Shown here: positions 270 to 12,217 of the stretch, piece after piece
Numbering within the stretch: position 1 is the stretch's first letter
Layout: every line of letters begins with the position of its first letter
Origin: Myxococcota bacterium
Lineage (GTDB): Bacteria > Myxococcota > JACRCW01
Direction: 5' to 3'
NCBI GenBank assembly: GCA_040752415.1
Contig: JBFMGU010000302.1
Coordinates: 1 to 12,243 of the forward strand
Length of the DNA: 12,243 nucleotides
Translations under genes and position numbers: made by a program
The notes under the pieces: generated by a model
The model's input: the letters and a program-made list of their open reading frames with translations, nothing else
Told to the model about the DNA's origin: nothing
The model's database searches: none

Positions 270-1709
270 TCAGTAGAAGCCGAACCAGCCCCGACCCCTC
301 ACCATGCCCGTCGTTTCGGGCGTGAAGTTCGGGACCTTGCGGGGCCGTCCGTCGTCCGCCACGAAATAGAGCGCGCTACCTCCGTCGGAGTTGGGAGGGT
401 CACGGCCCGTGGCCGCGGTGGCGGAGCCGTACAACGGCCACCGACAACCATCCAACGTCACCAACGTCTCTCCCGTGAAGGCGAAGGAGTCATCCTGCCC
501 CAGGATGGTGCTGAAGAGCACGCTGGTGCCGCTGGCGGAGATGTGCTCGGGAATCAGCTGCATGCGTGCGTCCCCCTCGTGCTCTCGTCGGGGCGGCAGC
601 GCCTCGTGGTGCTCCATGACCACCGATTGATCATCCACGCCGACCACGCTGATCCACGCTTCCCGGTTGCCGCTGCGGCTGACCACGGCGAAGGCGCCGG
701 AAAGGCCCACGGCGCCAAGGAATGGCACCAGCGAGAGGGCCCACGGTGAGGAAGGCTCCTGTCCCCGCCAGGGTCGCCAGGAGCGCAAGGTCCCATCCGC
801 GTGCAGCACCACGGCCGGTTCTTCACCGCGCAGCACCTGGCTGCCGCCGTAGGTCCCATTGAGCGCATAGCCCACGAGGATCCCGTCCACGCGGCCAAGG
901 GGAGTGCCGGTCTCCAGGCTGAGTGCCTCCGTGATCGCTCCCGTGATGTCGGGTCCCTGCGTGTGCGGGCGGGTGCTGACGAAGATCACGTTGGCGTCGC
1001 GCTGCACCATCCACGAGATGAAGTCATCCGTCTCCGCGGGGCGGTACAGCTCCTGCGTGGTTCCGCTGGAGAGGTCCACCCGCAACAAGCGGCGCGCACC
1101 CTCGGTGCCGGTGGGCGACCAGTAGGCCGTGGCAAAGACCACGCGCTCTTCATCCAGCGCCACCGGCCATGACGACGACACATCCAGCGGCCCGAGGTTC
1201 ACACGCTGGCGCTGGGTCACCGCGCCCTCTCCATCCACATCCCAGATCACCACCACGGAGTCGCCCGGCCCCGCGTCGCTGGTGGAGGAGTGCAAGGTGA
1301 CAATCCGACTGCCCTGGGGCGTGCCCACGCCGCTGGCGTACTGGTGGTCATCCAGCGTCAGGTACTGCGCGGCGCGTCCCGGCGTGGCGTGCATGATCTT
1401 GAGCCCGGTGGAGATCCACGCGGCGATGAGGTCGCGCTCGGGGTAGAAGGCCAGCGGGGTCGCCTGGGTTCCGACGTCAAGGAGCGGACCCAGGGTGCCG
1501 TCCACGTCGACAACGCGGAACCCATACTGCTCGGGGGTCTGCCAGAACAGCAGCGGCGCGGGCAGGTTGCCCACGGTAATCCCGCACGACGGGGGCGGCG
1601 GCTCGTCGACTGGCGCGGTGAAGGGGAGCTCCGGGGGCAGGGAGCACACCGTCATGGCGCCGGCCACGCCCAACCCCATCAACGCCTGAACCCAACGCAG
1701 TGACGGCAT
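270..1709 (-). CDS. Hypothetical exported beta-rich protein (probable beta-propeller), 479 aa
   Basis: Long ORF with GC-rich third positions. GGGAGG SD lies just upstream of the ATG, 16 nt after the stop of the upstream gene. Hydrophobic N-terminus ending in a Cys (MTVC), a Pro-rich linker, then propeller-like strands (VVVIWDVDG, LLRVDLSSGTTQELY). Confidence 0.8.
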   Translation of the reverse strand: MPSLRWVQALMGLGVAGAMTVCSLPPELPFTAPVDEPPPPSCGITVGNLPAPLLFWQTPEQYGFRVVDVDGTLGPLLDVGTQATPLAFYPERDLIAAWISTGLKIMHATPGRAAQYLTLDDHQYASGVGTPQGSRIVTLHSSTSDAGPGDSVVVIWDVDGEGAVTQRQRVNLGPLDVSSSWPVALDEERVVFATAYWSPTGTEGARRLLRVDLSSGTTQELYRPAETDDFISWMVQRDANVIFVSTRPHTQGPDITGAITEALSLETGTPLGRVDGILVGYALNGTYGGSQVLRGEEPAVVLHADGTLRSWRPWRGQEPSSPWALSLVPFLGAVGLSGAFAVVSRSGNREAWISVVGVDDQSVVMEHHEALPPRREHEGDARMQLIPEHISASGTSVLFSTILGQDDSFAFTGETLVTLDGCRWPLYGSATAATGRDPPNSDGGSALYFVADDGRPRKVPNFTPETTGMVRGRGWFGFY

Positions 1710-1725
1710 GGCGCCCTCCCGCCCT

Positions 1726-3171
1726 TTATTCGCGGATGCGGACGATCAGCGCGTCCGGTCCGCCGTTGCTGGCTGCTCCACGTCCCTCGGGCACGCTGAC
1801 CGTGTCCTCGAGCGAGCCCGTGAAATACACCACTCCCAGACCCGTGATGCTCAGCGACGTGGCGCTCTCATCCCCGGGTCCACCGACGGAGCGCGCGGTG
1901 CCGGGCTCCCCGTTGTAGTCCGTGCTGAGGATGTGGACGTCGGTGCCGCCCACCGGTGTCAAGGTGGTTTGTCCATAGGTGAAGGGCGCATCAAACGAGC
2001 CGAGCATCAAGACCCGCAGGATCAACGTGACGCCAATGACCGACACCGGCGCGGGCGGCTGGAGAGCCCAGGTGAGGGCGCCCGTGTCGTCGAAGGTGAG
2101 GATGTGCTGACCCGCGGCGGCGCCACCCGGAGCGAGGTCATGGGTGCCTTCCATCAGCAGCGCCATGCGGTTCCCCTCGATGGGAAGGGCAAGCTGCAGC
2201 GGCACGTCCTCCCCCACGCCGCCCACACGCACGGCCCAGGAGCGGGAGCCGCCTCCGGTCTGCAACACCAGGAAGATGTCCGTGCCGCCCTCGCTGGTGA
2301 GCGTGTGGCCATCCACGGTGAGGGTGTCCTGGAAGGAGCCCGCGATCAGCAGCTCCCCGGTGGAGATCGTGGTGGCTTCCAGCGCCTCGTCGTCACCCGG
2401 CCCGCCAAAGCCCTGCGGGGACTGGATCAACCCCTGCTCGTCAATGCGCAACACGAACGCGTCGCGCTGACCCACGGAGGTGATCACCCCGGTGGCCACG
2501 TCCATCTCCCCGGTGAACGAGCCGGCCAGGATGCCGTCGTGCGTGAAGGTGCGGGCCACGTCGTCACCCGCGCCGCCAATCCGGCGGGCGAAGGACATGG
2601 TGCCGGCGTCGCTGAAGTGGGTCACGAAGATGTCGCGCTGTCCCACGCTCACCAGCTCCGTGCCCTCCAGGTCCAGCGTGCCGGAGAAGGTCCCGGCCAC
2701 CGCCACGCCGTCGTCGGAGAAGATGGGCCGGAGGGAGCGCGCGGAAAGCTCCACGGAACCGCGGAAGGGTTGCTTGAGCCAGAGCAGCTGTCCGTCGGAG
2801 CGGAACGCGGCCAGGAAGATGTCGTGCGGGCGCGTGGCCTGCAGCGTGATGCCGTCCAGGGTCATCGTGTCACTGAAGGTACCGGCCACGTAGACCTGGT
2901 AGGCGCGTCCCACCGTCAACGCGATTCCGTGGTCCTCCCCGCTGCCACCCAGCGCCTCCGCGAAGTGCGCATAGAGATCTTCGCCCCAGCGGACATGGCT
3001 GGTGATGGAACCGCTGGATGAGCTCGAAGCGGATGATGATGACGTGGAGCTGGAGCTTCCCGCGGCGCCCGAGGAGGTGGACCCCGACGAGGAAGTGCTG
3101 GTCTCACCGCCCGTGGCGCCACTGCAGGCAGCGAGCGCGTAGACGCCAGCCGAAATCCAGACGAATCGCAA
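1726..3171 (-). CDS. Lipoprotein with SBBP-like beta-propeller repeats, ~481 aa
   Basis: Start placed at TTG 3171 (GGAG 6 nt upstream), giving MRFVWISAGVYALAA-C with lipobox LAAC (Cys16). A Ser/Thr/Gly linker is followed by repeated GGxGxD...(V/I)AG(S/T)F...D(I/A)F(V/L) blades. Confidence 0.85.
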   Translation of the reverse strand: MRFVWISAGVYALAACSGATGGETSTSSSGSTSSGAAGSSSSTSSSSASSSSSGSITSHVRWGEDLYAHFAEALGGSGEDHGIALTVGRAYQVYVAGTFSDTMTLDGITLQATRPHDIFLAAFRSDGQLLWLKQPFRGSVELSARSLRPIFSDDGVAVAGTFSGTLDLEGTELVSVGQRDIFVTHFSDAGTMSFARRIGGAGDDVARTFTHDGILAGSFTGEMDVATGVITSVGQRDAFVLRIDEQGLIQSPQGFGGPGDDEALEATTISTGELLIAGSFQDTLTVDGHTLTSEGGTDIFLVLQTGGGSRSWAVRVGGVGEDVPLQLALPIEGNRMALLMEGTHDLAPGGAAAGQHILTFDDTGALTWALQPPAPVSVIGVTLILRVLMLGSFDAPFTYGQTTLTPVGGTDVHILSTDYNGEPGTARSVGGPGDESATSLSITGLGVVYFTGSLEDTVSVPEGRGAASNGGPDALIVRIRE

Positions 3172-3200
3172 AGGAGGCTCCGTGGGAAGACGCGGAGCCA

Positions 3201-3229
3201 AGCTTAGGACAACTGCGGGTGAAGGCGAA
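3201..3229 (-). promoter_or_regulatory. Possible sigma70-type promoter for the lipoprotein operon
   Basis: Minus-strand TTCGCC-N17-TAAGCT, with the -10 about 30 nt upstream of the TTG start; the -35 match is weak. Confidence 0.3.
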
Positions 3230-3277
3230 GCGAAAATCAGCGCTGAAAGGCTCACCACCCCGCGCGCACGGCTTGCG

Positions 3278-4780
3278 CTACTTCCGCTGCAGCTTCTGGA
3301 ACTCCGGCACGTTCTCCAGCGTCTCGAACTCCGGGCCACGCAGGTCCACCACCTCCAGCTGCCCGTTCTTCTTCAGCTCCAGCAGGTACTTCATGGCGTT
3401 GTTGGTGTTGCCCTTGGCGGCGTGCGCGCGCGCCAGGTCCATCAGCAGCAGCGTGGGGATTCCGCGCGCCACCTCGCGCTCGGTGGGCGTGAGCTGCTCG
3501 GCGGCACGCAGCTGCTCCAGCGCCTCGTCGGCCTTGCCCATGAGCAGGTAGGCGTAGCCCAGGCGCACGCGCGGGGTCATGCGGTTGGGTGTCTGCTCGA
3601 CGCTGCGGCTCAGGTGCGTCACCGCCTCGTCGAGGAAACGCGCGTCCAGCAGCCGCTCGCCGAGGTTGAGCTGGTAGAAGGGTGAGTCACCGCCGGACAA
3701 TGCCAGCGCGGCGCGCGCGTGGGCCATGGCCTCGTCGGGCTGGTCGGCGCGGTAGGTGGCGTAGCTGAGGCGGTAACGCAGGTACGGGCTCTGCGGCACC
3801 TGCGCCGCCGCCGCGGCGAATGCGGCCTTGGCCTTGTCCCACTGTTGCGCTTCCATGTGCAGCTCGCCGGTGAGCCGCAGCACGTCGGGGTCACGCGGAC
3901 GCGCCGCCTGCACCTTGCCCAGCAGCGCCAACGCCTCCGCACGTCGACCCGCGGAGAACTCCTGCCGCACGCGCGCCAGCAACGGCAGACGCTCCAGCGG
4001 GTGCGCATCCACGTACGCCGCCAGCAGCTTGCCCGCGGCCGCATCCCCCGCCAGCGCGCGCGTGGCGAGCGAGACTCCCTCGGCCATGGGGTTGGTGGCG
4101 TCGGCGCGCGCGTCTTCACACGCGGTCTGCACGTTGGCGGGGATGGCCACGTCACGACCCTTGATGCCCGCACGCTCCAGCGCCACCGCCGCGAACGCCA
4201 CGCAGCGCACGTACCCCACCTGTCCCTTGGGCGAGGTGGGCACCGCGGGCAGGGTCCACGTCGACACGCCCAGCTCCGTGGTCAGCGCGGCGGCGATCTT
4301 TGACAGCGCGTCGGTGGGCGTGCCGGTGAGGTTGACCAGCGGCTTGCTCCGGGCCGGCGTCCCGCTGAGGACCTTCACGTCCCAGAGGAAGCCGCCCTTG
4401 GGCGCCGGCGCATAGGTGCCAAACACCACGTGCGAAGCGCCCGAGAGCTGGGCCAGCCGCGCCGCGGTCCGCTCGTCCAGGAGTGCGCCCAGCGGGATGC
4501 CCAGGTCGTCCATCATCTCCGCCTGTGCGCCTTGCGTGACCACGTTCACCGACGTGCTGGCCAGCGCCGCCTCCTCCAGCACCACGCTCACCAGCGCACC
4601 CAGGTGACGGTCCTCCGTCTTCACCGACTGCGCGGGTGCGAGCAGGACCAGCGCCACGTTGGGCAGCGGCGCCGGGTTGTTGGCGACGACGGGAGCCGCG
4701 GCGGGCGCGTCCGCCAGGGCAGGCAGGGACGCGCCCAGCAGCGGCAGCACGGAGAGCGGGAGGCGGAGGAAGTTGCGCAT
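3278..4780 (-). CDS. Exported tetratricopeptide-repeat protein with N-terminal FlgO/CsgG/TolB-N-like domain, 500 aa
   Basis: ATG 4780 follows AGGAG. Signal peptide MRNFLRLPLSVLPLLGASLPALA. The segment 'LDERTAARLAQLSGASHVVFGTY' is typical of FlgO/CsgG-like folds. Several TPRs (e.g. PRDPDVLRLTGELHMEAQQWDKAKAAFAAAAAQVPQSP) and a TPR-capping C-terminus (PEFETLENVPEFQKL). Confidence 0.85.
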   Translation of the reverse strand: MRNFLRLPLSVLPLLGASLPALADAPAAAPVVANNPAPLPNVALVLLAPAQSVKTEDRHLGALVSVVLEEAALASTSVNVVTQGAQAEMMDDLGIPLGALLDERTAARLAQLSGASHVVFGTYAPAPKGGFLWDVKVLSGTPARSKPLVNLTGTPTDALSKIAAALTTELGVSTWTLPAVPTSPKGQVGYVRCVAFAAVALERAGIKGRDVAIPANVQTACEDARADATNPMAEGVSLATRALAGDAAAGKLLAAYVDAHPLERLPLLARVRQEFSAGRRAEALALLGKVQAARPRDPDVLRLTGELHMEAQQWDKAKAAFAAAAAQVPQSPYLRYRLSYATYRADQPDEAMAHARAALALSGGDSPFYQLNLGERLLDARFLDEAVTHLSRSVEQTPNRMTPRVRLGYAYLLMGKADEALEQLRAAEQLTPTEREVARGIPTLLLMDLARAHAAKGNTNNAMKYLLELKKNGQLEVVDLRGPEFETLENVPEFQKLQRK

Positions 4781-5042
4781 GGCTCCTGAATAGCAACCGT
4801 CGGAATCCCGCGGAAGCCAGGTCCACGGCGGGGCGTGGCGGGCGCGCCCGTCGCCAAGACCCGCTGGCGGTGCTAATCGGACGGCACGGCAGCGCGTTTC
4901 CGCGGCGCGGGAGGATGAGGATGGCCATCTGCAACAGCGTGGCAGCCGCGGCGTGGGCCGGTTCCTCCGGCGCGGGGACGGGTGGGTGCTGCCGGACGTG
5001 GAGCGCCGGGCGCGCCTCCCGTGACGACGGGAAAGGCCGCGC

Positions 5043-6548
5043 ATGAGCGCGGATGTGATCCAGGTGATGCTGCTGGCCGGGGGGCAAAGCTCGTTGCCCT
5101 GGTTGCGCGCCGAGCGGTTGAGCGTGGAGCACGTGACCACGCTGGCCACGGGGATGGAACGGCTGGCGCGCGGTGGCGTGGACCTGGTGCTGGTGGGGGA
5201 GGGTCTCCCGGACAGCACTCCGCACGACGCGCTGTTGCGCATCCACGTGGAAGCGCCCTCCACCGCCGTGGTGATGCTCCTGGCGCAACCCACCGAGGAG
5301 GAGACGCTCATCCTCATCCGCCAGGGCGCCGACGACGCGTGGCCGCTCCAGCCCACCGACGTGGCGCAGGCGCTGTGGCGGGTGCGCCGCACCGTGGCCC
5401 ACAAGCGCGCCGAGCGGAACGTGCAGCACCGGCTCATCATGGCCGACCGCATCACCGCCATGGACGCCCTGGTGAGCGGCGTGGCGCACGAGATCAACAA
5501 CCCGCTGGCCGTGGTGATGGGCAACCTGGACTTCGCGGCGCTGGAGGTCCAGCGGCTGATGGCCGGGGACCCGCGCGCCGAGGAGCTGCACAAGGCGGTG
5601 CGGGATGCCCGCGACGGTGCCGAACGCGTCATGAAGCTGGTGCGCGACCTGTCCGTGCTGTCCAACAGCCGCCATGACCGACGTGGACCGGTGGATGTGC
5701 GTCACGTCGTGGACAGCGTGGTGAGCCTGGTGTGGACGGAGATCAAGCACAAGGCGCGGCTGGTGAAGCAGTACGCGGAGGTGCCGCCCATTGACGCCAA
5801 TGAGCCGCGCCTGGGCCAGGTGTTCATGAGCCTGTTGCGCAACGCGGCGCAGGCCATTGAGACCGGCAGGCCCGAGGACCAGGAGATCCGCCTCAGCATC
5901 CGGCCCCGGCAGCTTGGTGGCGTCGTGGTGGAGGTGGCGGACACCGGCAAGGGCATCCCGGCCGAGGACATCGAGCGCATCTTCGACCCGTTCTTCACCA
6001 CGCGCTCCCCCGGCAGCGGCACCGGGCTGGGCCTGGCCATCTCCCAGAGCATCATCAGCGCCATGGGGGGCACCATCTACGTGGAGAGCAAGGAGGGGCT
6101 GGGCAGCACCTTCCGCGTGGAGCTTCCCGGCGCCGCGCCCTCCCACGTCACCACGCCGCCCCCGCAGCAAGCCGTGGGCCCCCGCCGCGCGCGCGTGCTC
6201 ATCGTGGATGATGACCCCATGGTGGGGCGCAGCCTGCGCCGGCTCCTCTCCCGCGCGCATGACGCCACGCTGGCCTTCAGCGCCGCGGAGGCCCTGGAGC
6301 TGCTGCGCGCCGACCCCACCTACGACCTCATCCTGTGTGACCTCATGATGCCGGGGAAGAGCGGCATGGACCTCTTCGAGGAGGCGGTGGCGCTGAAACC
6401 GGAGCTGGGGCCGCGCTTCGCGTTCGTCACCGGCGGGGCCTTCACGCCGCGGGCGCGGGAATTCCTCTCCCGTGTGACCAATGACCGCTTCCAGAAGCCG
6501 GTGGACGTGGCCGCCCTGCTTGCCCTCATCCAGCGCCACCTCGGCTGA
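5043..6548 (+). CDS. Cytoplasmic hybrid sensor histidine kinase/response regulator (pseudo-REC, HisKA, HATPase_c, REC), 501 aa
   Basis: H-box VAHEINNPL (His149), N-box LLRNAAQA, G1 DTGKGI, F-box IFDPFFTT, G2 GTGLGL. C-terminal REC has VLIVDDD, CDLMMP (Asp433), TG and KP. No transmembrane segment. Confidence 0.95.
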
Positions 6549-6712
6549 GCCCACGACAACGGTGTCGCGGTGCCCGCCGACGGGAGCACGGCGGGATCCG
6601 CTCGTCGGAACAGGCGCGTCCGCTGCGCGGTTGCACGGGCAGAGCACGCCGTTCTGGAACGCGACGCGCGGTGCGTCACCGGAGGCGTGAGCACGCAGTC
6701 CTGGAGGTCCGC

Positions 6713-7474
6713 ATGTCCCCCATTGTGATTCCGTCCCCGTCGGAAGAGCGCGTGGCGCGCGGCAGCCTGCCGTGGGTCCCGGGCATCCTGTTCCTGGTGG
6801 CCGTGCCGGTGGTGCTGGCCGGTGCCGCCTACACCTACGACACGCTGGCGCACGAACGCGCCGCCGCCGAGATGGCGCGCCTGGAGCTGCGGGAGACGCG
6901 CTCACGCCTGGCGGAGCTGGCCGGGGAGATGCAGGCCAAGGAGGGAGAGCTGAGCGCGCTGCGCGCCACCTACCAGGAGCTGGAGCAGCAGCTGCATTCC
7001 GAGATCGGTCGTGGGGAGGTGCAGCTCATCAACGACGACGGGAGGATCCGGGTGCAGCTGGTGGACCAGATCCTCTTCGAGTCCGGGAAGGCCACGCTCA
7101 GTGAGAGCGGGGAGGACCTGCTGCGCCGGGTGGGCGGCGTGCTGCAGCGGCTGCAGGACAAGCAGGTCCAGGTCTCCGGTCACACCGATGACAGCCCGCC
7201 GGTGGGCGCCACGCGCGAGCAGTTCCCCACGAACTGGGAGCTGAGTGTGGCCCGCGCGGTCACGGTGGTGCGCTACCTGGGTGAGCGCGCGCACGTGCCG
7301 CAGAAGCGCCTGGTGGCGGCGGGCTTTGGCCAGTTCCACCCCGTGGGCAACAACGCCAACCACGAGGGGCGCGCGCGCAACCGCCGCATCGAGATCCTGC
7401 TGACGCCGATGGTGGAGGTGCAGCCGGTGGAGAAGCTCAGCGCGGGAACCACGACGTCGAGCGGGCATTCCTGA
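6713..7474 (+). CDS. MotB-like/OmpA-family peptidoglycan-binding membrane protein, 253 aa
   Basis: GGAGG SD before ATG 6713. One TM helix and a coiled coil, then an OmpA-like domain with ILFESGKA, VSGHTDD, TNWELSVARAVTV, GFGQFHP and NRRIEI. Confidence 0.92.
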   Translation: MSPIVIPSPSEERVARGSLPWVPGILFLVAVPVVLAGAAYTYDTLAHERAAAEMARLELRETRSRLAELAGEMQAKEGELSALRATYQELEQQLHSEIGRGEVQLINDDGRIRVQLVDQILFESGKATLSESGEDLLRRVGGVLQRLQDKQVQVSGHTDDSPPVGATREQFPTNWELSVARAVTVVRYLGERAHVPQKRLVAAGFGQFHPVGNNANHEGRARNRRIEILLTPMVEVQPVEKLSAGTTTSSGHS

Positions 7475-7818
7475 TGGGGTGACAGAAGTCGGAATCAGAG
7501 GTCCGCAGGTTCCGTTGTGGCAGCGCGGCTGGAATCCTGGGTACCACTTGGCGCGGGCTGACGAACCGCTGCCACCGTCCAGCAGCCCGGAACTCACCGC
7601 GCGCAACAACGTGACCAACACGCAGGTGGTGTTCCCGCGGGCGACGCTACCGCCCGACGGAGGCGGCGCGGCTAAGAGCCCAGGACACCGCCGCTTGCGT
7701 GGCGTTGCGCGGACTCACTGCGCCGCCTTTGGTGGTGGGGTCACGGGGTGGGCAGTGGCGGCCCGGACGTTCGCTGGCGATTCTGGAACGGCTCATCCTC
7801 CTTTGCTACTCAGCCGGT

Positions 7819-8420
7819 ATGCCTCGTCGCCCGAAGTCCAAACACACGAGCGCCGCACCGACGCGCACCTACTCGCTCGAACGGCTCTACGTTGATCAGG
7901 AGCCGACGTGGGTGGTGGATGCCATGCCCTTTGTCCTTGCTTGGCTGGCATCTCGTGGCACCGGACAGCCGGCGACCTTTGACGTCAGCGTCAAGTTGAG
8001 TGGCACCAAGGCGCGCCCGCAGCCGCTCGCGCTGTCGTGGGACATGGGTCAGCTCGTGGCACGGGACCCGCACCTCTCGGAGCGCGTTCGACGCCTCCAG
8101 GCGGGCAAGAGTGTCCTGGTCGAGGACGTGACCAAGATCGCTGCCTATGGGCTCGCATTGGCGGCCATCTCGGTCTTCTTGCCGGGTCGTCGCGTCACCG
8201 ACTTTCGCCAAGGGATGCCCCGGACCTGGTCTTCGAGACCAACGGCGCCGTCGATGGGGTCGAGGTTGCGGGCCGTTCCACGGGTGGCTGGGGCGCCCTC
8301 AACTCCGAGCTGAAGGTGAAGTCCGCCGAGTTGAAGGGCCGCAGCGATGTCCGGCGGGCCCACCTCTCCCTGTGGTGCGCCTCCCCCCGTGTCTCCCATT
8401 TCCACAAGGTGAAGCCATGA
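7819..8420 (+). pseudogene. Small PD-(D/E)XK-like nuclease (~200 aa if repaired), split by a -1 frameshift near 8212-8222; real lesion or sequencing error
   Basis: The frame from ATG 7819 reads ...EDVTKIAAYGLALAAISVFLPGRRVTDFRQGM. The -1 frame continues APDLVFETNGAVDGVEVAGRSTGG...AHLSLWCASPRVSHFHKVKP*, and its TGA overlaps the next gene's ATG (ATGA 8417-8420). One inserted base in GGGATGCCCCGGAC restores a single ORF. Confidence 0.7.
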
Positions 8421-9421
8421 TCGACGAGGTGCGCCACCGCGCCCTGGTGGAATCGGGTGCGCTCAAGATGCGCGCCAGCGCGCTGCTGGCCGAGGGACGA
8501 GCGGAGGACCGGTTTGAAGCCGCAGTGCTCTTCCACGAGGCGGCTCGCGCCGAGAAACGCGCGCTGAGCGCAACGGAGAACCCCTCAGCCACGGAGCGCT
8601 TGGCGCGGTGGGGAGAAGCGTGCGGGTGCCTCATCTCCGGCCTGGACCCGCCGCAGGCGGCCCGGGCCTGGGGGGAGGTCCTGAACGTCGCTGCATCGCT
8701 GCGTCCACGGACCGCCACGGCAACCCTCAACCGGCTCCGCGAGGCGTTCCTGAGGCAGAACGCGGCGTTCGTCGCAACGCTGAGGGATGCCCCGCTGTTG
8801 CAGGACGAAGCCACGCTGGTTCCCGCCGAGGACAAGGTCCGACGCCAGGTGCTCAAACAGATCGATGGGTTGCTGGAGCTCTTCCCCGGTGTTGCGCACT
8901 TGTGGTGGCTCCGCTTCCGCAATCAGAAGCAGGCAGGTGATCTGCATGGCGGGTGGGAGTCACTGCGCAAGGCTCAGCTGCTTGCGCCGGACAATCCGAG
9001 CTTTGCTGCCATTGCGCTGTGGCTGGCTCCTCAGGTCTTGTCGCGGCGTGATGCGGAGGCCCGGCTTGATGCCGCCTATGACCAGGTGGCCACCGCTTCC
9101 GCCGAGGTGTGCCTCTTCATTGCGCTAGGCAAGTTGAAGGCAGCAGCTGAGACGCGGCGCGACAGGGAGGCGCTGCACGCCGCGCTTCGCGCTGCCAGCG
9201 TCGGGTTGTCTCGGAGTGGAACCTACCCGGCCCTGAGAGCTTCGCTTTACGCCGTGCAGCTCGCCTCGGAAGTCATGCTCGGGGGAGGGACGCCGAACGC
9301 GGAGGTGCTCTACCGCGCGGGGGTGGCCGGGGACTTTGTTGGCGCAGGCCTGCCCGTCACTGATGTGCTGGGAACAATTGCCGCGGTGGGGGAGCGGAGC
9401 ATCGAGCGCTTGGCGGCGTAG
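8417..9421 (+). CDS. Hypothetical all-alpha-helical, TPR-like protein, 334 aa
   Basis: ATGA overlap with the upstream gene. Ala/Leu/Arg-rich helical sequence with a TPR-like unit (LELFPGVAHLWWLRFRNQKQAGDLHGGWESLRKAQLLAPDNPSF) and an EACGCL motif. No signal peptide or TM segment. Confidence 0.85.
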   Translation: MIDEVRHRALVESGALKMRASALLAEGRAEDRFEAAVLFHEAARAEKRALSATENPSATERLARWGEACGCLISGLDPPQAARAWGEVLNVAASLRPRTATATLNRLREAFLRQNAAFVATLRDAPLLQDEATLVPAEDKVRRQVLKQIDGLLELFPGVAHLWWLRFRNQKQAGDLHGGWESLRKAQLLAPDNPSFAAIALWLAPQVLSRRDAEARLDAAYDQVATASAEVCLFIALGKLKAAAETRRDREALHAALRAASVGLSRSGTYPALRASLYAVQLASEVMLGGGTPNAEVLYRAGVAGDFVGAGLPVTDVLGTIAAVGERSIERLAA

Positions 9422-9481
9422 GCGCCACCCGAGTCGCCAGCTGCCGACGCAGTACCCGTCCAGGAAACCGGAGGCGCCGCT

Positions 9482-11281
9482 TCACTCCGTCGTCACCACG
9501 GCGCGCGCGGCGCGGATGGGCGCATCCAGCCCCTTCACGTTGGCGTCGAACCGCTCCAGCTGCCGGATGGACCACAGCCACCCCTGCGCCTGCGCCCGCT
9601 CCGCCAGCTCCGCCGTCATCACCACCTCACCGCCCTGCGCGGTGCCCTGCAGGCGCGCGGCGATGTTCACCGTCTGCCCGAAGTAGTCGATGAGCTTGTT
9701 GGCGGTGGCGGCGTAGACCGGCCCAATGTGCACGCCCACCCGCAGGAACACGTCCGGCGCGTATCTGCGCTCGGCGCGAAACGCGGGAAAGGCGCGCTGC
9801 ATGTCCACCGCGGCGCGGACCAGGGATTCCTCGTCGGGGAACGCGGCCATCACGGCGTCACCAATGGTCTTCACCAGCGTGCCCTGGTGCCGCGCGATGA
9901 CCGCACCCAGCAGCTCGAAGTGCTCCTGCACCAGGCGGAACGCCACCGCATCCCCCGCGCGCGTGTACAGCGAGGTGGACGCGGTGAGGTCGGTGAACAG
10001 CAGGCCCACGCGCTGCACGGTGAGGCTCAGGTTGGTCCGCAGCACCTCCGCCGAGAACATGCGACGGAACTCCGGCAGCAGGCTCAGGTGCATGGCGGTG
10101 GCCGCGGTGTTGGCCCAGCCCAGGCGCTCCAGGCGCAGGTGCCGCTCGACGTCGAGGGCGTGCTCCACCGTGATGGTGCCGCCGGGAGCCACGGTGAGCG
10201 CGGCGGGCTCGGCGGTCTCGCCCACGCGGGTCCGCACCTGCGCCGGCCCGTCGGCCACCACGTCCACCGCCACGGTCAGCCCACCCCGCACGAAGATCCG
10301 GCAACGCCCCGCGGCGCCAGGTGCGGTGACCTCCACGGTGCCGCGCGGCGGCAGGATGGCCTGCGCCTCCACGTGCGGGAACAGGAACGGACCGGAGATG
10401 CAGAACGGACGCACCTCCCATTCCCGCACCGTCGAGGACGGACGGAACGTGGCCTCCACGGAGCGGTCGAACTCCAGGCCAAAGGAGATGTCGCAGAACT
10501 GGCAGCGGCCGTGCTCGGCAATGGCGGAGAGCGTGGGCGCGGTCTCGGTGCCGGTGAGACAGCTGGGACAGACCAGCTCCCAGGTCAGCTCCAGCAGCCC
10601 GGCGTTCACCGCGTGCAGGAACGTGATCAGTGTGTCCCGTCGGGGAAGTCGCCACGCATCCGCCAGCGCGAAGGGACGCAGGTGGCGCACGTCGTGATCG
10701 TCGGCGGTGGCCACGTGCTCCACCAGGCGACGCGCAATGGCGCGCTGTGCCTCCGTCACGCTTTTCACGGTGGCGTCCGCGGCGCGCTGGAAGGCGTCCT
10801 GCTTGAGACGGGGCGGCGGCACTCCGTAGGCGGGCTTGTTGCGGCGGATGTTGTCCCCGCACCGCTGGAGCGAGGAGAACACGTCGCGGAACACCATGCG
10901 GCCCACCAGCGACGCCAGCGGTGACACCAGGGGCGAGCGCGGCACGGCGCGGAGACGGAGGCGCACCTGGGTCCGCTCCGACGTCACCGGGGTCAGCTCC
11001 CAGCTCATCACCGCCCAGGCCAGCGGTCCGCTGAGGAACACGCGCTTGCCGTGGAGGAACCGGCCCACCTGCCACTCAAGGGGGTGCTCCTCGTATTCCA
11101 GCGTGGCCGGGCCGGCGCTGCGCTTGAACACGAAGCGTGCGGCGCCTTGCGCGTGGGGCGTGATGTCCGGGACACCCACGCCGGTGGCCTGGTTGCCGCG
11201 GTCCGAGTCCGCCACGACGTCCCAGGCAGCCTGCAGTGGAAGCGGCCACTCCAGGGTGTCGGTCCACATCAGCGTCTTCAT
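9482..11281 (-). CDS. Class III adenylate/guanylate cyclase with N-terminal SRPBCC/START-like and DUF5939-like Zn-ribbon regions, 599 aa
   Basis: Catalytic motifs LFTDLTAST, VKTIGDAVMAAF and IDYFGQTVNIAARL (both metal Asp, ATP-specifying Lys/Asp, Asn/Arg). CPSC...CQFC pair; N-terminal 'PLQAAWDVVADSDRGNQ' SRPBCC-like pattern; GGGGAG SD. Confidence 0.93.
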   Translation of the reverse strand: MKTLMWTDTLEWPLPLQAAWDVVADSDRGNQATGVGVPDITPHAQGAARFVFKRSAGPATLEYEEHPLEWQVGRFLHGKRVFLSGPLAWAVMSWELTPVTSERTQVRLRLRAVPRSPLVSPLASLVGRMVFRDVFSSLQRCGDNIRRNKPAYGVPPPRLKQDAFQRAADATVKSVTEAQRAIARRLVEHVATADDHDVRHLRPFALADAWRLPRRDTLITFLHAVNAGLLELTWELVCPSCLTGTETAPTLSAIAEHGRCQFCDISFGLEFDRSVEATFRPSSTVREWEVRPFCISGPFLFPHVEAQAILPPRGTVEVTAPGAAGRCRIFVRGGLTVAVDVVADGPAQVRTRVGETAEPAALTVAPGGTITVEHALDVERHLRLERLGWANTAATAMHLSLLPEFRRMFSAEVLRTNLSLTVQRVGLLFTDLTASTSLYTRAGDAVAFRLVQEHFELLGAVIARHQGTLVKTIGDAVMAAFPDEESLVRAAVDMQRAFPAFRAERRYAPDVFLRVGVHIGPVYAATANKLIDYFGQTVNIAARLQGTAQGGEVVMTAELAERAQAQGWLWSIRQLERFDANVKGLDAPIRAARAVVTTE

Positions 11282-11381: not shown

Positions 11382-11410
11382 TTGACGGGGATTTCAAGGG
11401 GTGCCATTCC
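11382..11410 (+). promoter_or_regulatory. Possible sigma70-type promoter giving a leaderless or near-leaderless mRNA
   Basis: TTGACG (11382-11387)-N17-CATTCC with TG at the extended -10 position, 8 nt before ATG 11419; no SD before the ATG. The -10 match is poor. Confidence 0.35.
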
Positions 11411-11418
11411 TCGCGCCC

Positions 11419-11919
11419 ATGAGCGGACATCCAGTGTTTGTGGCGGTGCGGCGCGGCGACGGAACCATTGAGCAGGTGCGGGTTGGCACCGCGTACAAGG
11501 ACGGCGAGAACTTCCGCCTGGAGCTGGGCCAGCTGACGATTGGCGGCGCGGAAGTTCCCGCCACGTCGTCACGGCCGGCGGCGGCGCGCCCCGCGGCGGG
11601 CGGTGGCGGCGGCGGGATGGTGTTCCCCAACTACGGTCGCAGCAAGGGCATGCCCATCTCCGGCGCCAGCGCGCAGGACCTGGAGTTCTACGCCAATGGT
11701 TGTCGTCGGACGCTGGCCGACCCGAACAAGGCGCGCTGGCATGACAAGGAGCGCGAGCTGCTCGCCGCCATCGAAGCGGAGATGGAGCGGCAGGGCATCA
11801 GCGGCGGCGGAGGCACGTCCTCGCGCGGCAGCGCGCCCCGGGATCCCGGTTCTGCTCGCTGGGGCGCACCGTCCGGTGAGGAGCCGCCTCCCCTGTCCGA
11901 CGACGACATCCCGTTCTGA
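11419..11919 (+). CDS. Hypothetical two-domain protein with an SSB-type acidic C-terminal tail (DDDIPF), 166 aa
   Basis: Strongly GC-biased third positions. Small beta domain, Ala/Gly linker, FPNYGRSKG helical domain, Gly/Pro linker and the C-terminus PPPLSDDDIPF*. Confidence 0.9.
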   Translation: MSGHPVFVAVRRGDGTIEQVRVGTAYKDGENFRLELGQLTIGGAEVPATSSRPAAARPAAGGGGGGMVFPNYGRSKGMPISGASAQDLEFYANGCRRTLADPNKARWHDKERELLAAIEAEMERQGISGGGGTSSRGSAPRDPGSARWGAPSGEEPPPLSDDDIPF

Positions 11920-12042: not shown

Positions 12043-12217
12043 AGGTGGCCGGCAATGGTCAGCCCGGGGCCGCGCCGCCATGACGACATAGAACGGCACG
12101 CGATGCGACCGGCCCGACCGGTTCAACGCGACGGAGGACCGGACAGCAATGTAGGGGCTGCCCGTTGCCGGTACCGCGTGAACGGTGAAGGTGGCCGGCA
12201 ATGGTCAGCCCCGGGCC
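12043..12217. repeat. 29-nt direct repeat, two copies 146 nt apart
   Basis: AGGTGGCCGGCAATGGTCAGCCC(G/C)GGGCC at 12043-12071 and 12189-12217 (28/29 identical). Each copy is followed 9-10 nt later by TGACGAC. Confidence 0.85.

What the first reader, a model, noticed from the sequence alone, without database searches (positions are those of the whole stretch)
11419..11919. Protein carrying a canonical SSB C-terminal tail without recognisable SSB motifs: possible alternative ssDNA-binding hub or SSB mimic
Seen: the protein ends in a Gly/Pro-rich linker plus DDDIPF (11899-11916), but the SSB OB-fold signatures (NKVILIGNLG, TEWHR) are absent. It has a ~40-aa beta module (VFVAVRRGDGTIEQVRVGTAYKDGENFRLELGQLTIG) and a helical module starting FPNYGRSKGMPI...DLEFYA. 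Established: DDDIPF is the E. coli SSB tip that docks RecO, RecQ, ExoI, PriA and Pol III chi. Inference: the beta module resembles small PC4/DUF736-like ssDNA binders, and the second module resembles the 'MPFGKYKG' DUF3820/ExoX C-terminal-like domain. The protein may recruit or titrate SSB partners in repair, recombination or phage conflict.
Basis: partly seen in the sequence, partly recalled or inferred. Interest (0 to 1): 0.7.

Follow-up and report, generated by a model that had tools for sequence, protein, structure and literature searches.

The report
Non-OB protein carrying an SSB tail
A small, uncharacterised myxobacterial protein ends in the same docking peptide as the cell's single-stranded-DNA-binding protein but lacks its DNA-binding fold, and its middle domain plus tail also occur on phage DNA-annealing proteins, so it is probably a second docking adaptor for DNA repair and recombination enzymes.

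Summary
Window 11419-11919 (+) encodes a 166-aa protein ending EPPPLSDDDIPF, with no Pfam or NCBIfam match and no OB fold. It is a real, conserved gene. There are 1432 homologues, and all 120 listed end in an acidic run followed by x-P-F. It was found in 53 of 201 sampled Myxococcota genomes, 50 of 54 in one family, one copy each, among unrelated housekeeping neighbours. The genome also holds three canonical SSBs.

The protein is beads on a string: a three-strand beta module, a Gly linker, a helical-hairpin module, a Gly-rich linker, then PPPxxDDDxPF.

The main new result is that the helical module and tail travel together as a cassette. The cassette also follows ERF annealase cores (16 of 23 long relatives) and one SSB OB domain, and it follows short coiled coils in many small proteins. 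On viral contigs it lies in a RecT operon and near an Erf gene.

The helical module shows a local but real profile match to DUF3820 (PF12843). The proposed DUF736/PC4 likeness of the beta module was not supported.

Best reading (confidence 0.45): a non-OB adaptor that plugs into the SSB partner network, shared with or taken from phage recombination modules. ssDNA binding is untested.

The parts
11419..11919 (+). Coding sequence of the 166-aa protein (P0001), stop codon included
   Evidence: There are 1432 homologues. Homologues start at the equivalent of the ATG at 11419.
11425..11544 (+). N-terminal beta module (residues 3-42): a three-strand antiparallel meander with conserved PV.V.V.R.DG..E.VRVGTA....F.L.LG.L.IG
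   Evidence: AF2 predicts strands at 3-11, 17-28 and 31-36 with pLDDT 89-95. No known fold was matched. A shorter variant occurs in a viral-contig protein, L112 5761-6243.
11545..11616 (+). Linker 1 (residues 43-66), rich in Ala, Pro and Gly and predicted disordered
   Evidence: pLDDT is 45-59. Length varies across the alignment.
11617..11793 (+). Helical module (residues 67-125): an FPxYGRSKGxPI hairpin loop followed by two helices (85-100 and 102-124). It is the most conserved part of the protein.
   Evidence: pLDDT is 91-96. Invariant residues are P70, Y72, G73, R74, G82, A83, D87, L88, Y91, L99, D101, K104, R106, H108, E111, R112. The same module occurs after ERF and SSB domains and in small coiled-coil proteins. 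It has a local profile match to PF12843.
11794..11880 (+). Linker 2 (residues 126-154), Gly/Ser/Pro-rich and disordered, like the SSB intrinsically disordered linker
   Evidence: pLDDT is 46-50. Length and sequence vary across homologues.
11881..11916 (+). C-terminal tip EPPPLSDDDIPF (residues 155-166): a PPP motif followed by an SSB-type acidic tip
   Evidence: P157, P165 and F166 are invariant; P158 and D161 are nearly invariant. The tip is present in 120 of 120 listed homologues and 70 of 74 genome-record orthologues. It nearly matches the tail of this genome's C21 SSB, DEPPPLTDDDIPF. pLDDT rises to 72 over the last six residues.

Best explanation
The gene encodes a lineage-specific, chromosomally fixed adaptor of DNA metabolism that is not an OB-fold SSB.

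Its working unit is a cassette with three parts: a small helical module with a conserved basic YGRSKG loop (distantly like DUF3820), a disordered Gly-rich linker, and a PPPxxDDDxPF tip that copies the host SSB C-terminal tip. Phage single-strand annealing proteins carry the same cassette.

Proposed mechanism: the free C-terminal ..D-D-x-P-F inserts into the SSB-tail pockets of genome-maintenance enzymes. Which enzymes is not tested; RecO, RecJ, PriA, RecQ and the clamp-loader chi are the textbook clients. The helical module anchors the protein to a second target at ssDNA intermediates, such as DNA, SSB, or an annealase or exonuclease. The N-terminal beta module stands where ERF, OB or coiled-coil domains stand in relatives, so it supplies self-association and/or DNA contact.

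Shown: the domain layout, the conservation, the cassette sharing and the link to annealases. Inferred: all binding steps.
For: 1. The tail is under selection.
- All 120 of 120 listed homologues and 70 of 74 orthologues from genome records keep an acidic run followed by x-P-F at the very C-terminus, after a variable linker.
- The tail resembles the host SSB tip. In 10 other genomes the main SSB ends ..DDIPF; this genome's C21 SSB ends EPPPLTDDDIPF against this protein's EPPPLSDDDIPF.

2. The gene is real and vertically kept.
- 190 relatives were found in one-genome-per-species records.
- It matched 53 of 201 sampled phylum genomes and 50 of 54 in one family, almost always as one match per genome. 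That count includes the unpublished genome G205.
- Neighbours are housekeeping genes, conserved only within genus groups, with no prophage genes.

3. The cassette is shared.
- All 149 further 50%-identity representatives examined (P0121-P0269 of the 150 listed, out of 449 hits) contain the helical module. Only 25 also have the beta module, and 74 end in the tail pattern.
- Of 23 long representatives scanned, 16 have an N-terminal ERF domain (PF04404) and 1 has an SSB OB domain.
- Fused forms end ..PPPPGDEDAPF.

4. There is a genomic link to annealases on viral contigs.
- L115 carries RecT, then orf126, then a cassette protein, with overlapping stop and start codons.
- L113 has a cassette protein 2.5 kb from an Erf gene.
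- L112 encodes a protein with the beta module plus cassette on a contig that has a terminase.

5. Published work (passages of PMC13490951) states that RecT/Red-beta C-terminal bundles couple to the exonuclease partner and to SSB-Ct. Annealase C-termini are therefore already known as the host-interface part.

6. The helical module has a local profile match to PF12843, a domain also found fused to ExoX-like exonucleases (L004) and to Rad52-like annealases.
Against: - No binding was tested.
- Family tips often differ from the host SSB tip. They read DDDAPF, DDDNIPF, DDVPF or DDMPF where the host SSB has DDIPF. The client set may therefore be narrower or private.
- The helical module has no informative solved-structure neighbour: best Z 6.1, which is in the noise for helical hairpins.
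- Many cassette relatives carry only a coiled coil at the N-terminus. What the N-terminal partners share may therefore be oligomerisation, not DNA binding.
- No relative was found in 50,697 GenBank phage records or 72,556 plasmids at E<=1e-3. The phage link rests on 4 IMG/VR contigs and on the fusions.
- The tree of the helical module is unresolved, so the direction of transfer (phage to host or host to phage) is unknown.
Confidence: 0.45

Rival explanations
1. It is a true alternative ssDNA-binding protein. The beta module (as an oligomer) and/or the basic loop of the helical module coats ssDNA, and the tail recruits partners exactly as SSB does.
For: - In relatives the cassette follows known ssDNA binders: ERF in 16 of 23 and an SSB OB domain in 1 of 23. 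RecT and Rad52 clusters appear by structure in the Atlas. The beta module therefore occupies the slot of an ssDNA-binding domain.
- The layout of folded part, disordered Gly-rich linker and acidic tip is the SSB layout.
- UniRef auto-names one member 'Single-stranded DNA-binding protein'.
Against: - A 40-residue three-strand sheet has no match to any OB, PC4, Whirly or other ssDNA-binding fold. The best score is Z 2.7, and Pur-alpha gives Z 2.2 at rmsd 7.0.
- There is no Pfam hit to DUF736, PC4 or SSB.
- About 100 of 149 relatives replace the N-terminal domain with a plain coiled coil. This argues that the slot needs oligomerisation rather than DNA binding.
- The genome already has three SSBs.
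Confidence: 0.2
2. It is a decoy or regulator. As a domesticated copy of the phage annealase cassette, it competes with SSB or with phage annealases for the same pockets. That would tune recombination or restrict phages that depend on those contacts.
For: - The same cassette sits on phage ERF, RecT-linked and beta-module proteins.
- The host copy lacks any annealase core.
- Tips diverge from the host SSB tip in whole clades, for example DDDAPF and DDDNIPF. A competitor tuned to particular clients would be expected to diverge this way.
Against: - The gene is single-copy, nearly universal in one large family (50 of 54), and sits among housekeeping genes. It is not in defence islands or prophages.
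- No PADLOC-type context was seen. The PADLOC library was not searched.
- The direction of transfer is unresolved.
Confidence: 0.15
3. The tail serves mainly the protein's own helical module. The module would be an SSB-tail receptor, like other annealase C-terminal bundles. The proteins would then be self-capped, or would chain head-to-tail and onto SSB tails, building multivalent assemblies on ssDNA.
For: - The helical module and tail are inherited together across six N-terminal contexts.
- The module has invariant Arg, Lys and aromatic residues: R74, K76, R96, R97, K104, R106, W107, H108.
- In the monomer model, confidence rises from 46 to 72 at the last residues, which form a short helical turn.
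- Published passages describe annealase C-termini contacting SSB-Ct.
Against: - No contact map was available, and no complex prediction gave an answer.
- A subset of relatives has 8-10 further residues after ..DIPF. That does not fit a pocket which needs the free carboxylate.
- The module's net charge is about neutral (sequence).
Confidence: 0.12

Closest known systems
Bacterial SSB C-terminal region (disordered linker plus the ..DDDIPF tip, the SSB-Ct hub)
   Same: Both have a disordered Gly/Pro-rich linker ending in an acidic run, a hydrophobic residue, Pro and a C-terminal Phe. The last six residues are identical to the E. coli tip as quoted in the abstract of PMC5872125 (listing). The tail is nearly identical to that of this genome's own C21 SSB.
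   Different: - There is no OB fold.
- The folded parts are a three-strand sheet and a helical hairpin.
- The family hallmark PPP lies 8-10 residues before the end.
- The tip residue at position -3 is often Ala, Val, Leu or Met, or an Asn is inserted, where the host SSB keeps Ile.
[quoted passage not shown]
   Same: The helical module is homologous to the C-terminal region of ERF-family annealases, with E 1e-16 to 1e-22 in the whole-library search. It is also encoded in a RecT operon. Passages of PMC13490951 describe such C-termini as host and partner interfaces.
   Different: This protein has no annealase core. The cassette ends in its own SSB-like tip. That feature is not described for Red-beta or RecT in the passages read, and I found no paper on it.
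DUF3820 / QSregVF_b (PF12843), the 'PFGKYKG' domain also found at the C-terminus of ExoX-like DnaQ exonucleases
   Same: Both share a hairpin-loop motif followed by a helix: P-x-[YF]-G-[RK]-x-KG-x-x-[ILV]...[LY]-[LE]-x-[FW]-[YF]. hhalign gave P 6e-4 over 23 columns, above all 100 shuffled controls. Both occur fused to ssDNA-processing enzymes.
   Different: - The Pfam model does not match any of 48 members at E<=10.
- The similarity stops after the first helix.
- hhalign probability is only 28%.
- The function of DUF3820 is itself unknown: 4 papers mention it, none in the title or abstract.
Phage T7 gp2.5-type acidic C-terminal tails ending in Phe (recalled, not tested here)
   Same: Both are acidic tails with a terminal aromatic residue on a phage recombination or replication protein, used to dock polymerase or helicase partners (recalled from general knowledge).
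   Different: gp2.5 is an OB-fold protein and its tail is not ..IPF. No sequence comparison was made here.

Membership tests
Canonical bacterial SSB (PF00436) | N-terminal OB-fold ssDNA-binding domain | tested here: not met
   No PF00436 or PF22657 hit at E<=10 for this protein or for 48 relatives. The same model finds three true SSBs in this genome. The AF2 model shows three strands plus a two-helix hairpin.
Canonical bacterial SSB (PF00436) | Disordered linker ending in an acidic tip with C-terminal ..[ILVM]-P-F | tested here: met
   The protein ends DDDIPF after a linker with pLDDT 46-50. The tip is conserved in 120 of 120 listed homologues and 70 of 74 genome-record orthologues.
DUF3820 / QSregVF_b (PF12843) and ExoX-like C-terminal domain | Match to the family profile above its curated cut-off | tested here: not met
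   No hit at E<=10. A whole-genome search with PF12843 found only the ExoX-like gene on C249, at 17.2 bits, below the cut-off. It did not find this gene.
DUF3820 / QSregVF_b (PF12843) and ExoX-like C-terminal domain | Shared hairpin-loop 'G-K-x-K-G' motif and fold | tested here: inconclusive
   hhalign gave score 22.1, P 6e-4, probability 28% over 23 columns. None of 100 column shuffles reached it (maximum 14.9). The Atlas structural neighbour is a Rad52+PF12843 cluster at TM 0.58.
DUF736 (PF05284) / PC4-like ssDNA binders | Match to the family profile | tested here: not met
   No hit at E<=10 in 48 members. PF05284 matched 0 of 201 phylum genomes, including the 53 that carry this family. No control genome matched either, so that search lacks a positive control.
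DUF736 (PF05284) / PC4-like ssDNA binders | PC4/Whirly-type curved four-strand sheet plus helix | tested here: inconclusive
   The isolated module (pLDDT 89) has three strands and no helix. The best VIA score is Z 2.7, and Pur-alpha gives Z 2.2 at rmsd 7.0. Foldseek found nothing at E<=0.001.
Annealase-associated helical-module + acidic-tip cassette (unnamed; defined here) | Helical module homologous to the C-terminal region of ERF-fused and stand-alone relatives | tested here: met
   phmmer E-values of 1e-16 to 1e-22 to ERF-fused proteins, over query residues about 45-166. The module HMM hits 149 of 149 representatives.
Annealase-associated helical-module + acidic-tip cassette (unnamed; defined here) | Module followed by a variable linker and a PPP..acidic..PF end | tested here: met
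   Present in this protein. 74 of 149 representatives match the tail pattern; many of the rest are cut metagenome fragments or have an extension after ..IPF.
Annealase-associated helical-module + acidic-tip cassette (unnamed; defined here) | Physical binding of the tip to SSB-client proteins, or of the module to a partner | not testable with these tools
   This needs biochemistry. The one complex-prediction job gave no verdict.

The most novel reading that the evidence does not exclude
There may be a portable 'SSB-tip cassette': a DUF3820-like helical module with a basic loop, a disordered linker, and a PPPxxDDDxPF tip. Phage annealases of several superfamilies, at least one SSB, and a host protein fixed in myxobacteria would all use it to wire themselves into the SSB interactome.

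In the boldest version, the helical module is itself a receptor for SSB-type tips. Cassette proteins, SSB and annealases would then form head-to-tail multivalent networks on ssDNA, and the host copy would act as a second, OB-less hub or gatekeeper of that network.
Probability: 0.15. Interest if true: 0.8.

Novelty: new variant of a known kind. Interest (0 to 1): 0.6.

Why it matters
The SSB C-terminal tip is the central docking signal of bacterial genome maintenance, and it determines which phage recombinases work in which host. This is a conserved cellular protein that carries the signal on a non-OB scaffold. The same module-plus-tip unit is bolted onto phage annealases.

That suggests two things. 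First, the hub signal is modular and is exchanged between phages and hosts. Second, DUF3820-type domains belong to this interface, although their function is unknown.

It gives a concrete handle on three questions. One is how annealases reach the replication fork. Another is recombineering design in myxobacteria, which are important producers of natural products. The third is assigning a function to a widespread orphan domain.

Tried and rejected
- **Family libraries.** Pfam and NCBIfam scans of the protein and of 48 relatives gave no family.
- **Solved structures by sequence.** The profile search found only chance-level rows: 2wfb at E 0.22 and a designed repeat protein at E 0.048.
- **Fold searches, whole model.** Foldseek against PDB and BFVD found nothing at E<=0.001. 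The VIA wide search gave a best Z of 6.1 among generic helical hairpins such as ribosomal L29.
- **Fold searches, beta module alone.** The best VIA score was Z 2.7, and Foldseek found nothing.
- **Homodimer prediction.** Full-length protein, two copies: no verdict (score 0.04 against a mark of 0.42). This is not evidence either way.
- **RNA evidence.** No RNA run holding this DNA was listed.
- **Other collections.** tblastn against GenBank phages and PLSDB plasmids found no match at E<=1e-3.
- **Longer fused forms.** The word-index search for proteins over 291 aa found none. The tool itself calls this weak evidence.
- **DUF736.** The genome search gave 0 of 201, with no positive control.
- **SOS regulation.** A LexA-box consensus recalled from memory matched 0 of 78 upstream regions. 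The promoter and terminator scan found no site.
- **Tail co-variation with host SSB.** Rejected. In all 10 other genomes checked, the main host SSB ends ..DDIPF while the family tips vary.
- **Tree of the helical module.** 162 rows over 63 columns gave an unresolved tree (11 of 159 branches supported), so no donor or order of events can be stated. Before building it I dropped rows with more than 6 gaps and three in four of the close homologues P0002-P0120.
- **Earlier findings of this scan.** Nothing was found by sequence or by words.
- **Literature.** No paper on this family or on SSB-type tips on annealases was found.

Full report
**Observation**

The + strand ORF at 11419-11919 encodes 166 residues ending GEEPPPLSDDDIPF. 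An in-frame GTG at 11401 is possible, but homologues begin MS.. at the position of the ATG. Pfam-A and NCBIfam give no hit at E<=10, and none of 48 relatives hits an SSB, DUF736, PC4 or DUF3820 model.

**A real, conserved gene with a conserved tail**

- The word-index search found 1432 homologues of 91-291 aa, all named 'hypothetical' apart from automatic labels. The named ones come from Myxococcus, Corallococcus, Pyxidicoccus, Hyalangium and uncultured Myxococcota.
- All 120 listed homologues end in an acidic run followed by x-P-F. The commonest endings are DDDIPF (44), DDNIPF (27), DEDIPF (9) and DDDAPF (7).
- In one-genome-per-species records, 190 stretches encode a relative and the best 80 were kept. 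Of these, 74 run to a stop codon and 70 of the 74 end in PF. The four exceptions are L017, L032, L040 and L064.
- In a sample of 201 genomes of the phylum, 53 have the gene, 50 of 54 in one GTDB family, nearly always as one match per genome. The count includes the unpublished genome G205. The window's own genome belongs to a different class from that family, and its one sampled family-mate (92% complete) gave no match.
- The flanks are not conserved beyond genus groups. They hold housekeeping genes: transketolase, an AAA ATPase, DUF2378, an M28 peptidase and histidine kinases. In the window, the upstream gene is a divergent adenylate cyclase. This is not a prophage or defence-island setting.

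**Canonical SSBs exist**

PF00436 finds three OB-fold SSBs in this genome. Their ends are DEPPPLTDDDIPF (C21)..VDENMPF (C86) and ..QMMDIPF (C48). In the whole genome, only 4 of 97,445 frames of 60 aa or more end [DE][DE][DEN]?[ILVMA]PF: two of the SSBs, this protein, and a zinc-ribbon protein on C301.

**Anatomy**

The AF2 model, built on a 48-sequence alignment, has mean pLDDT 77.7. It shows:

| Residues | Part | pLDDT |
|---|---|---|
| 3-36 | Three-strand antiparallel sheet | 89-95 |
| 43-66 | Disordered linker | about 45-59 |
| 67-125 | Compact module: FPxYGRSKGxPI hairpin loop, then helices 85-100 and 102-124 | 91-96 |
| about 126-154 | Second disordered Gly-rich linker | about 46-50 |
| 161-166 | Tip, with a short helical turn | 72 |

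The helical module holds most of the invariant residues: P70, Y72, G73, R74, G82, A83, D87, L88, Y91, L99, D101, K104, R106, H108, E111 and R112. In the tail, P157, P165 and F166 are invariant, and P158 and D161 are nearly invariant.

**The helical module and tail are a shared cassette**

This is the main new result.

- The exhaustive search of 1.84 billion representatives gave 449 hits. The best 150 are listed: P0089, which was already among the hits, and 149 new ones, P0121-P0269, analysed below. Most of these align only to query residues about 45-130 or 45-166.
- A module HMM hits all 149 of those representatives. Only 25 also contain the beta module, and 74 end in the tail pattern.
- Of the 23 long representatives that I scanned, 16 have an N-terminal ERF annealase domain, 1 has an SSB OB domain (P0242), and 6 have no Pfam match. 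The fused forms end ..EPPPPGDEDAPF and similar.
- About 100 small representatives (110-160 aa) carry an N-terminal amphipathic helix of about 30 residues in place of the beta module.
- The ESM Atlas lists further structural neighbours of residues 64-127: a RecT cluster from Myxococcota (TM 0.78) and a viral Rad52+PF12843 cluster (TM 0.58). These are leads, not tests.

A scan of viral contigs found four loci:

| Locus | What it carries |
|---|---|
| L112 | 160-aa protein with a shortened beta module, the helical module and ..DDSGLPF, on a contig with a large terminase |
| L113 | Coiled-coil version ending DDDSIPF, 2.5 kb from an Erf gene |
| L114 | Coiled-coil version ending DDDIPF |
| L115 | RecT (4392-5501), orf126 (5498-5878) and a cassette protein (5875-6312) with overlapping stop and start codons, i.e. 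one operon |

No relative was found in GenBank phage records or PLSDB plasmids at E<=1e-3. This genome holds no second copy of the module.

**Relation to DUF3820**

I took 11 PF12843 sequences from genomes of the phylum, plus the C-terminus of this genome's own ExoX-like DnaQ exonuclease (..INFGKYKGRTLKQLL..). hhalign against the helical-module alignment gave one local match of 23 columns, PYGRSKGxPIxGAsxxDLEFYa to PFGRYKGRRLxDLPExYLxWFxx, with score 22.1, P 6e-4 and probability 28%. One hundred column-shuffled controls had a median of 9.1 and a maximum of 14.9. It is not family membership, because the Pfam model does not match. Nothing is published on DUF3820 function: 4 papers mention it, none in the title or abstract.

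**The beta module**

Folded alone, it has pLDDT 89.1. It has no significant structural neighbour: the best VIA score is Z 2.7, Pur-alpha gives Z 2.2 at rmsd 7.0, and Foldseek finds nothing. PF05284 (DUF736) matched none of 201 phylum genomes, but no control genome matched either. The DUF736/PC4 idea is unsupported.

The module occupies the slot that ERF, OB or coiled-coil domains occupy in relatives. All of those domains oligomerise, but only some bind ssDNA. The safest inference is self-association, with DNA contact possible.

**The tail compared with host SSB tails**

In 10 other genomes that carry the family, the main SSB always ends ..DDIPF, while the family tip varies: DDDAPF, DDDNIPF, SDDVPF, DDDMPF, DDDLPF. 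There is no strict co-variation. The terminal P-F and the acidic run are constant, while the residue at -3 and the PPP motif are specific to the family. A PPP lies within the last 20 residues of 6 of the 15 PF-ending SSB tails listed, including this genome's C21 SSB, so it is partly a trait of the phylum.

**Mechanism**

Published passages state that Red-beta and RecT C-terminal bundles couple to the partner exonuclease and to SSB-Ct, and that the SSB tip governs which RecT works in which host (PMC13490951, passages).

Against that background, the most economical reading is that this cassette is the host-interface unit of myxobacterial phage annealases. The chromosomal family would then be the same unit on a small oligomerising or DNA-contacting beta module, acting as an OB-less adaptor in the SSB partner network (confidence 0.45).

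Three rivals remain:
- a genuine alternative ssDNA binder (0.2);
- a decoy or regulator (0.15);
- a self-binding tail and module (0.12).

All binding steps are inferred. The homodimer prediction gave no verdict, and no RNA data were listed.

**Novelty**

No member of the family is characterised, and no paper was found on it or on annealases carrying SSB-type tips. The elements are known: the SSB tip, annealase C-terminal interfaces, and a DUF3820-like motif. Their combination into a portable cassette, and its fixation on a non-OB host protein, appear to be undescribed. I rate it a new variant of a known kind.

Noticed in passing
window 12043-12071 and 12189-12217: A 29-nt direct repeat (AGGTGGCCGGCAATGGTCAGCCC(C/G)GGGCC, 97% identical, 146 nt apart) lies in the apparently non-coding stretch after the gene, up to the contig end.
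   Followed up: no
G000 contig C301 47532-48125 (-); locus L116 1033-1578 (-): A second non-SSB protein in this genome has an SSB-like end. It is a zinc-ribbon protein of about 145 aa (CxxC...CxxC) whose acidic C-terminus ends ..DPWWEEDIPF, with an internal WEEEDIRF.
   Followed up: partly
Proteins P0154, P0157, P0168, P0170, P0175, P0196, P0200, P0205, P0208, P0216, P0218, P0220, P0236, P0249: In a subset of cassette relatives, the ..D-[IVL]-P-F motif is not terminal. It is followed by 3-10 more residues, several of them similar to each other (..IPFAFIETRLDxP..PFLARETRLTHC). This does not fit recognition of a free C-terminal carboxylate.
   Followed up: no
G000 contigs C21, C86, C48 (loci L002, L001, L003): The genome has three SSB paralogues with different tips: DDDIPF, DENMPF and MMDIPF. 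The Myxococcus genome G152 has five PF00436 matches, one of which lacks a PF end.
   Followed up: partly
G000 contig C249; locus L004 814-1689 (+): A DnaQ/ExoX-like exonuclease of 291 aa has a C-terminal ..INFGKYKGRTLKQLL.. domain. It is a sub-threshold PF12843 match at 17.2 bits.
   Followed up: partly
window 11382-11421: TTGACG lies 31 nt before the ATG, with no obvious ribosome-binding site. CGTTGACA occurs in 17 of 78 orthologous upstream regions. This is compatible with a leaderless or near-leaderless mRNA, but the consensus scan called no promoter.
   Followed up: partly
window 270-11281: The other genes of the window are:
- two large proteins of unknown family (270-1709 -, 1726-3339 -);
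- a TPR protein (ending at 3278, -);
- a hybrid histidine kinase with a receiver domain (5043-6548 +);
- an OmpA-family protein (6671-7474 +);
- two unknowns (7699-8313 +, 8417-9421 +);
- a class III nucleotidyl cyclase with DUF5939 (9482-11281 -).
None is linked to DNA metabolism.
   Followed up: partly
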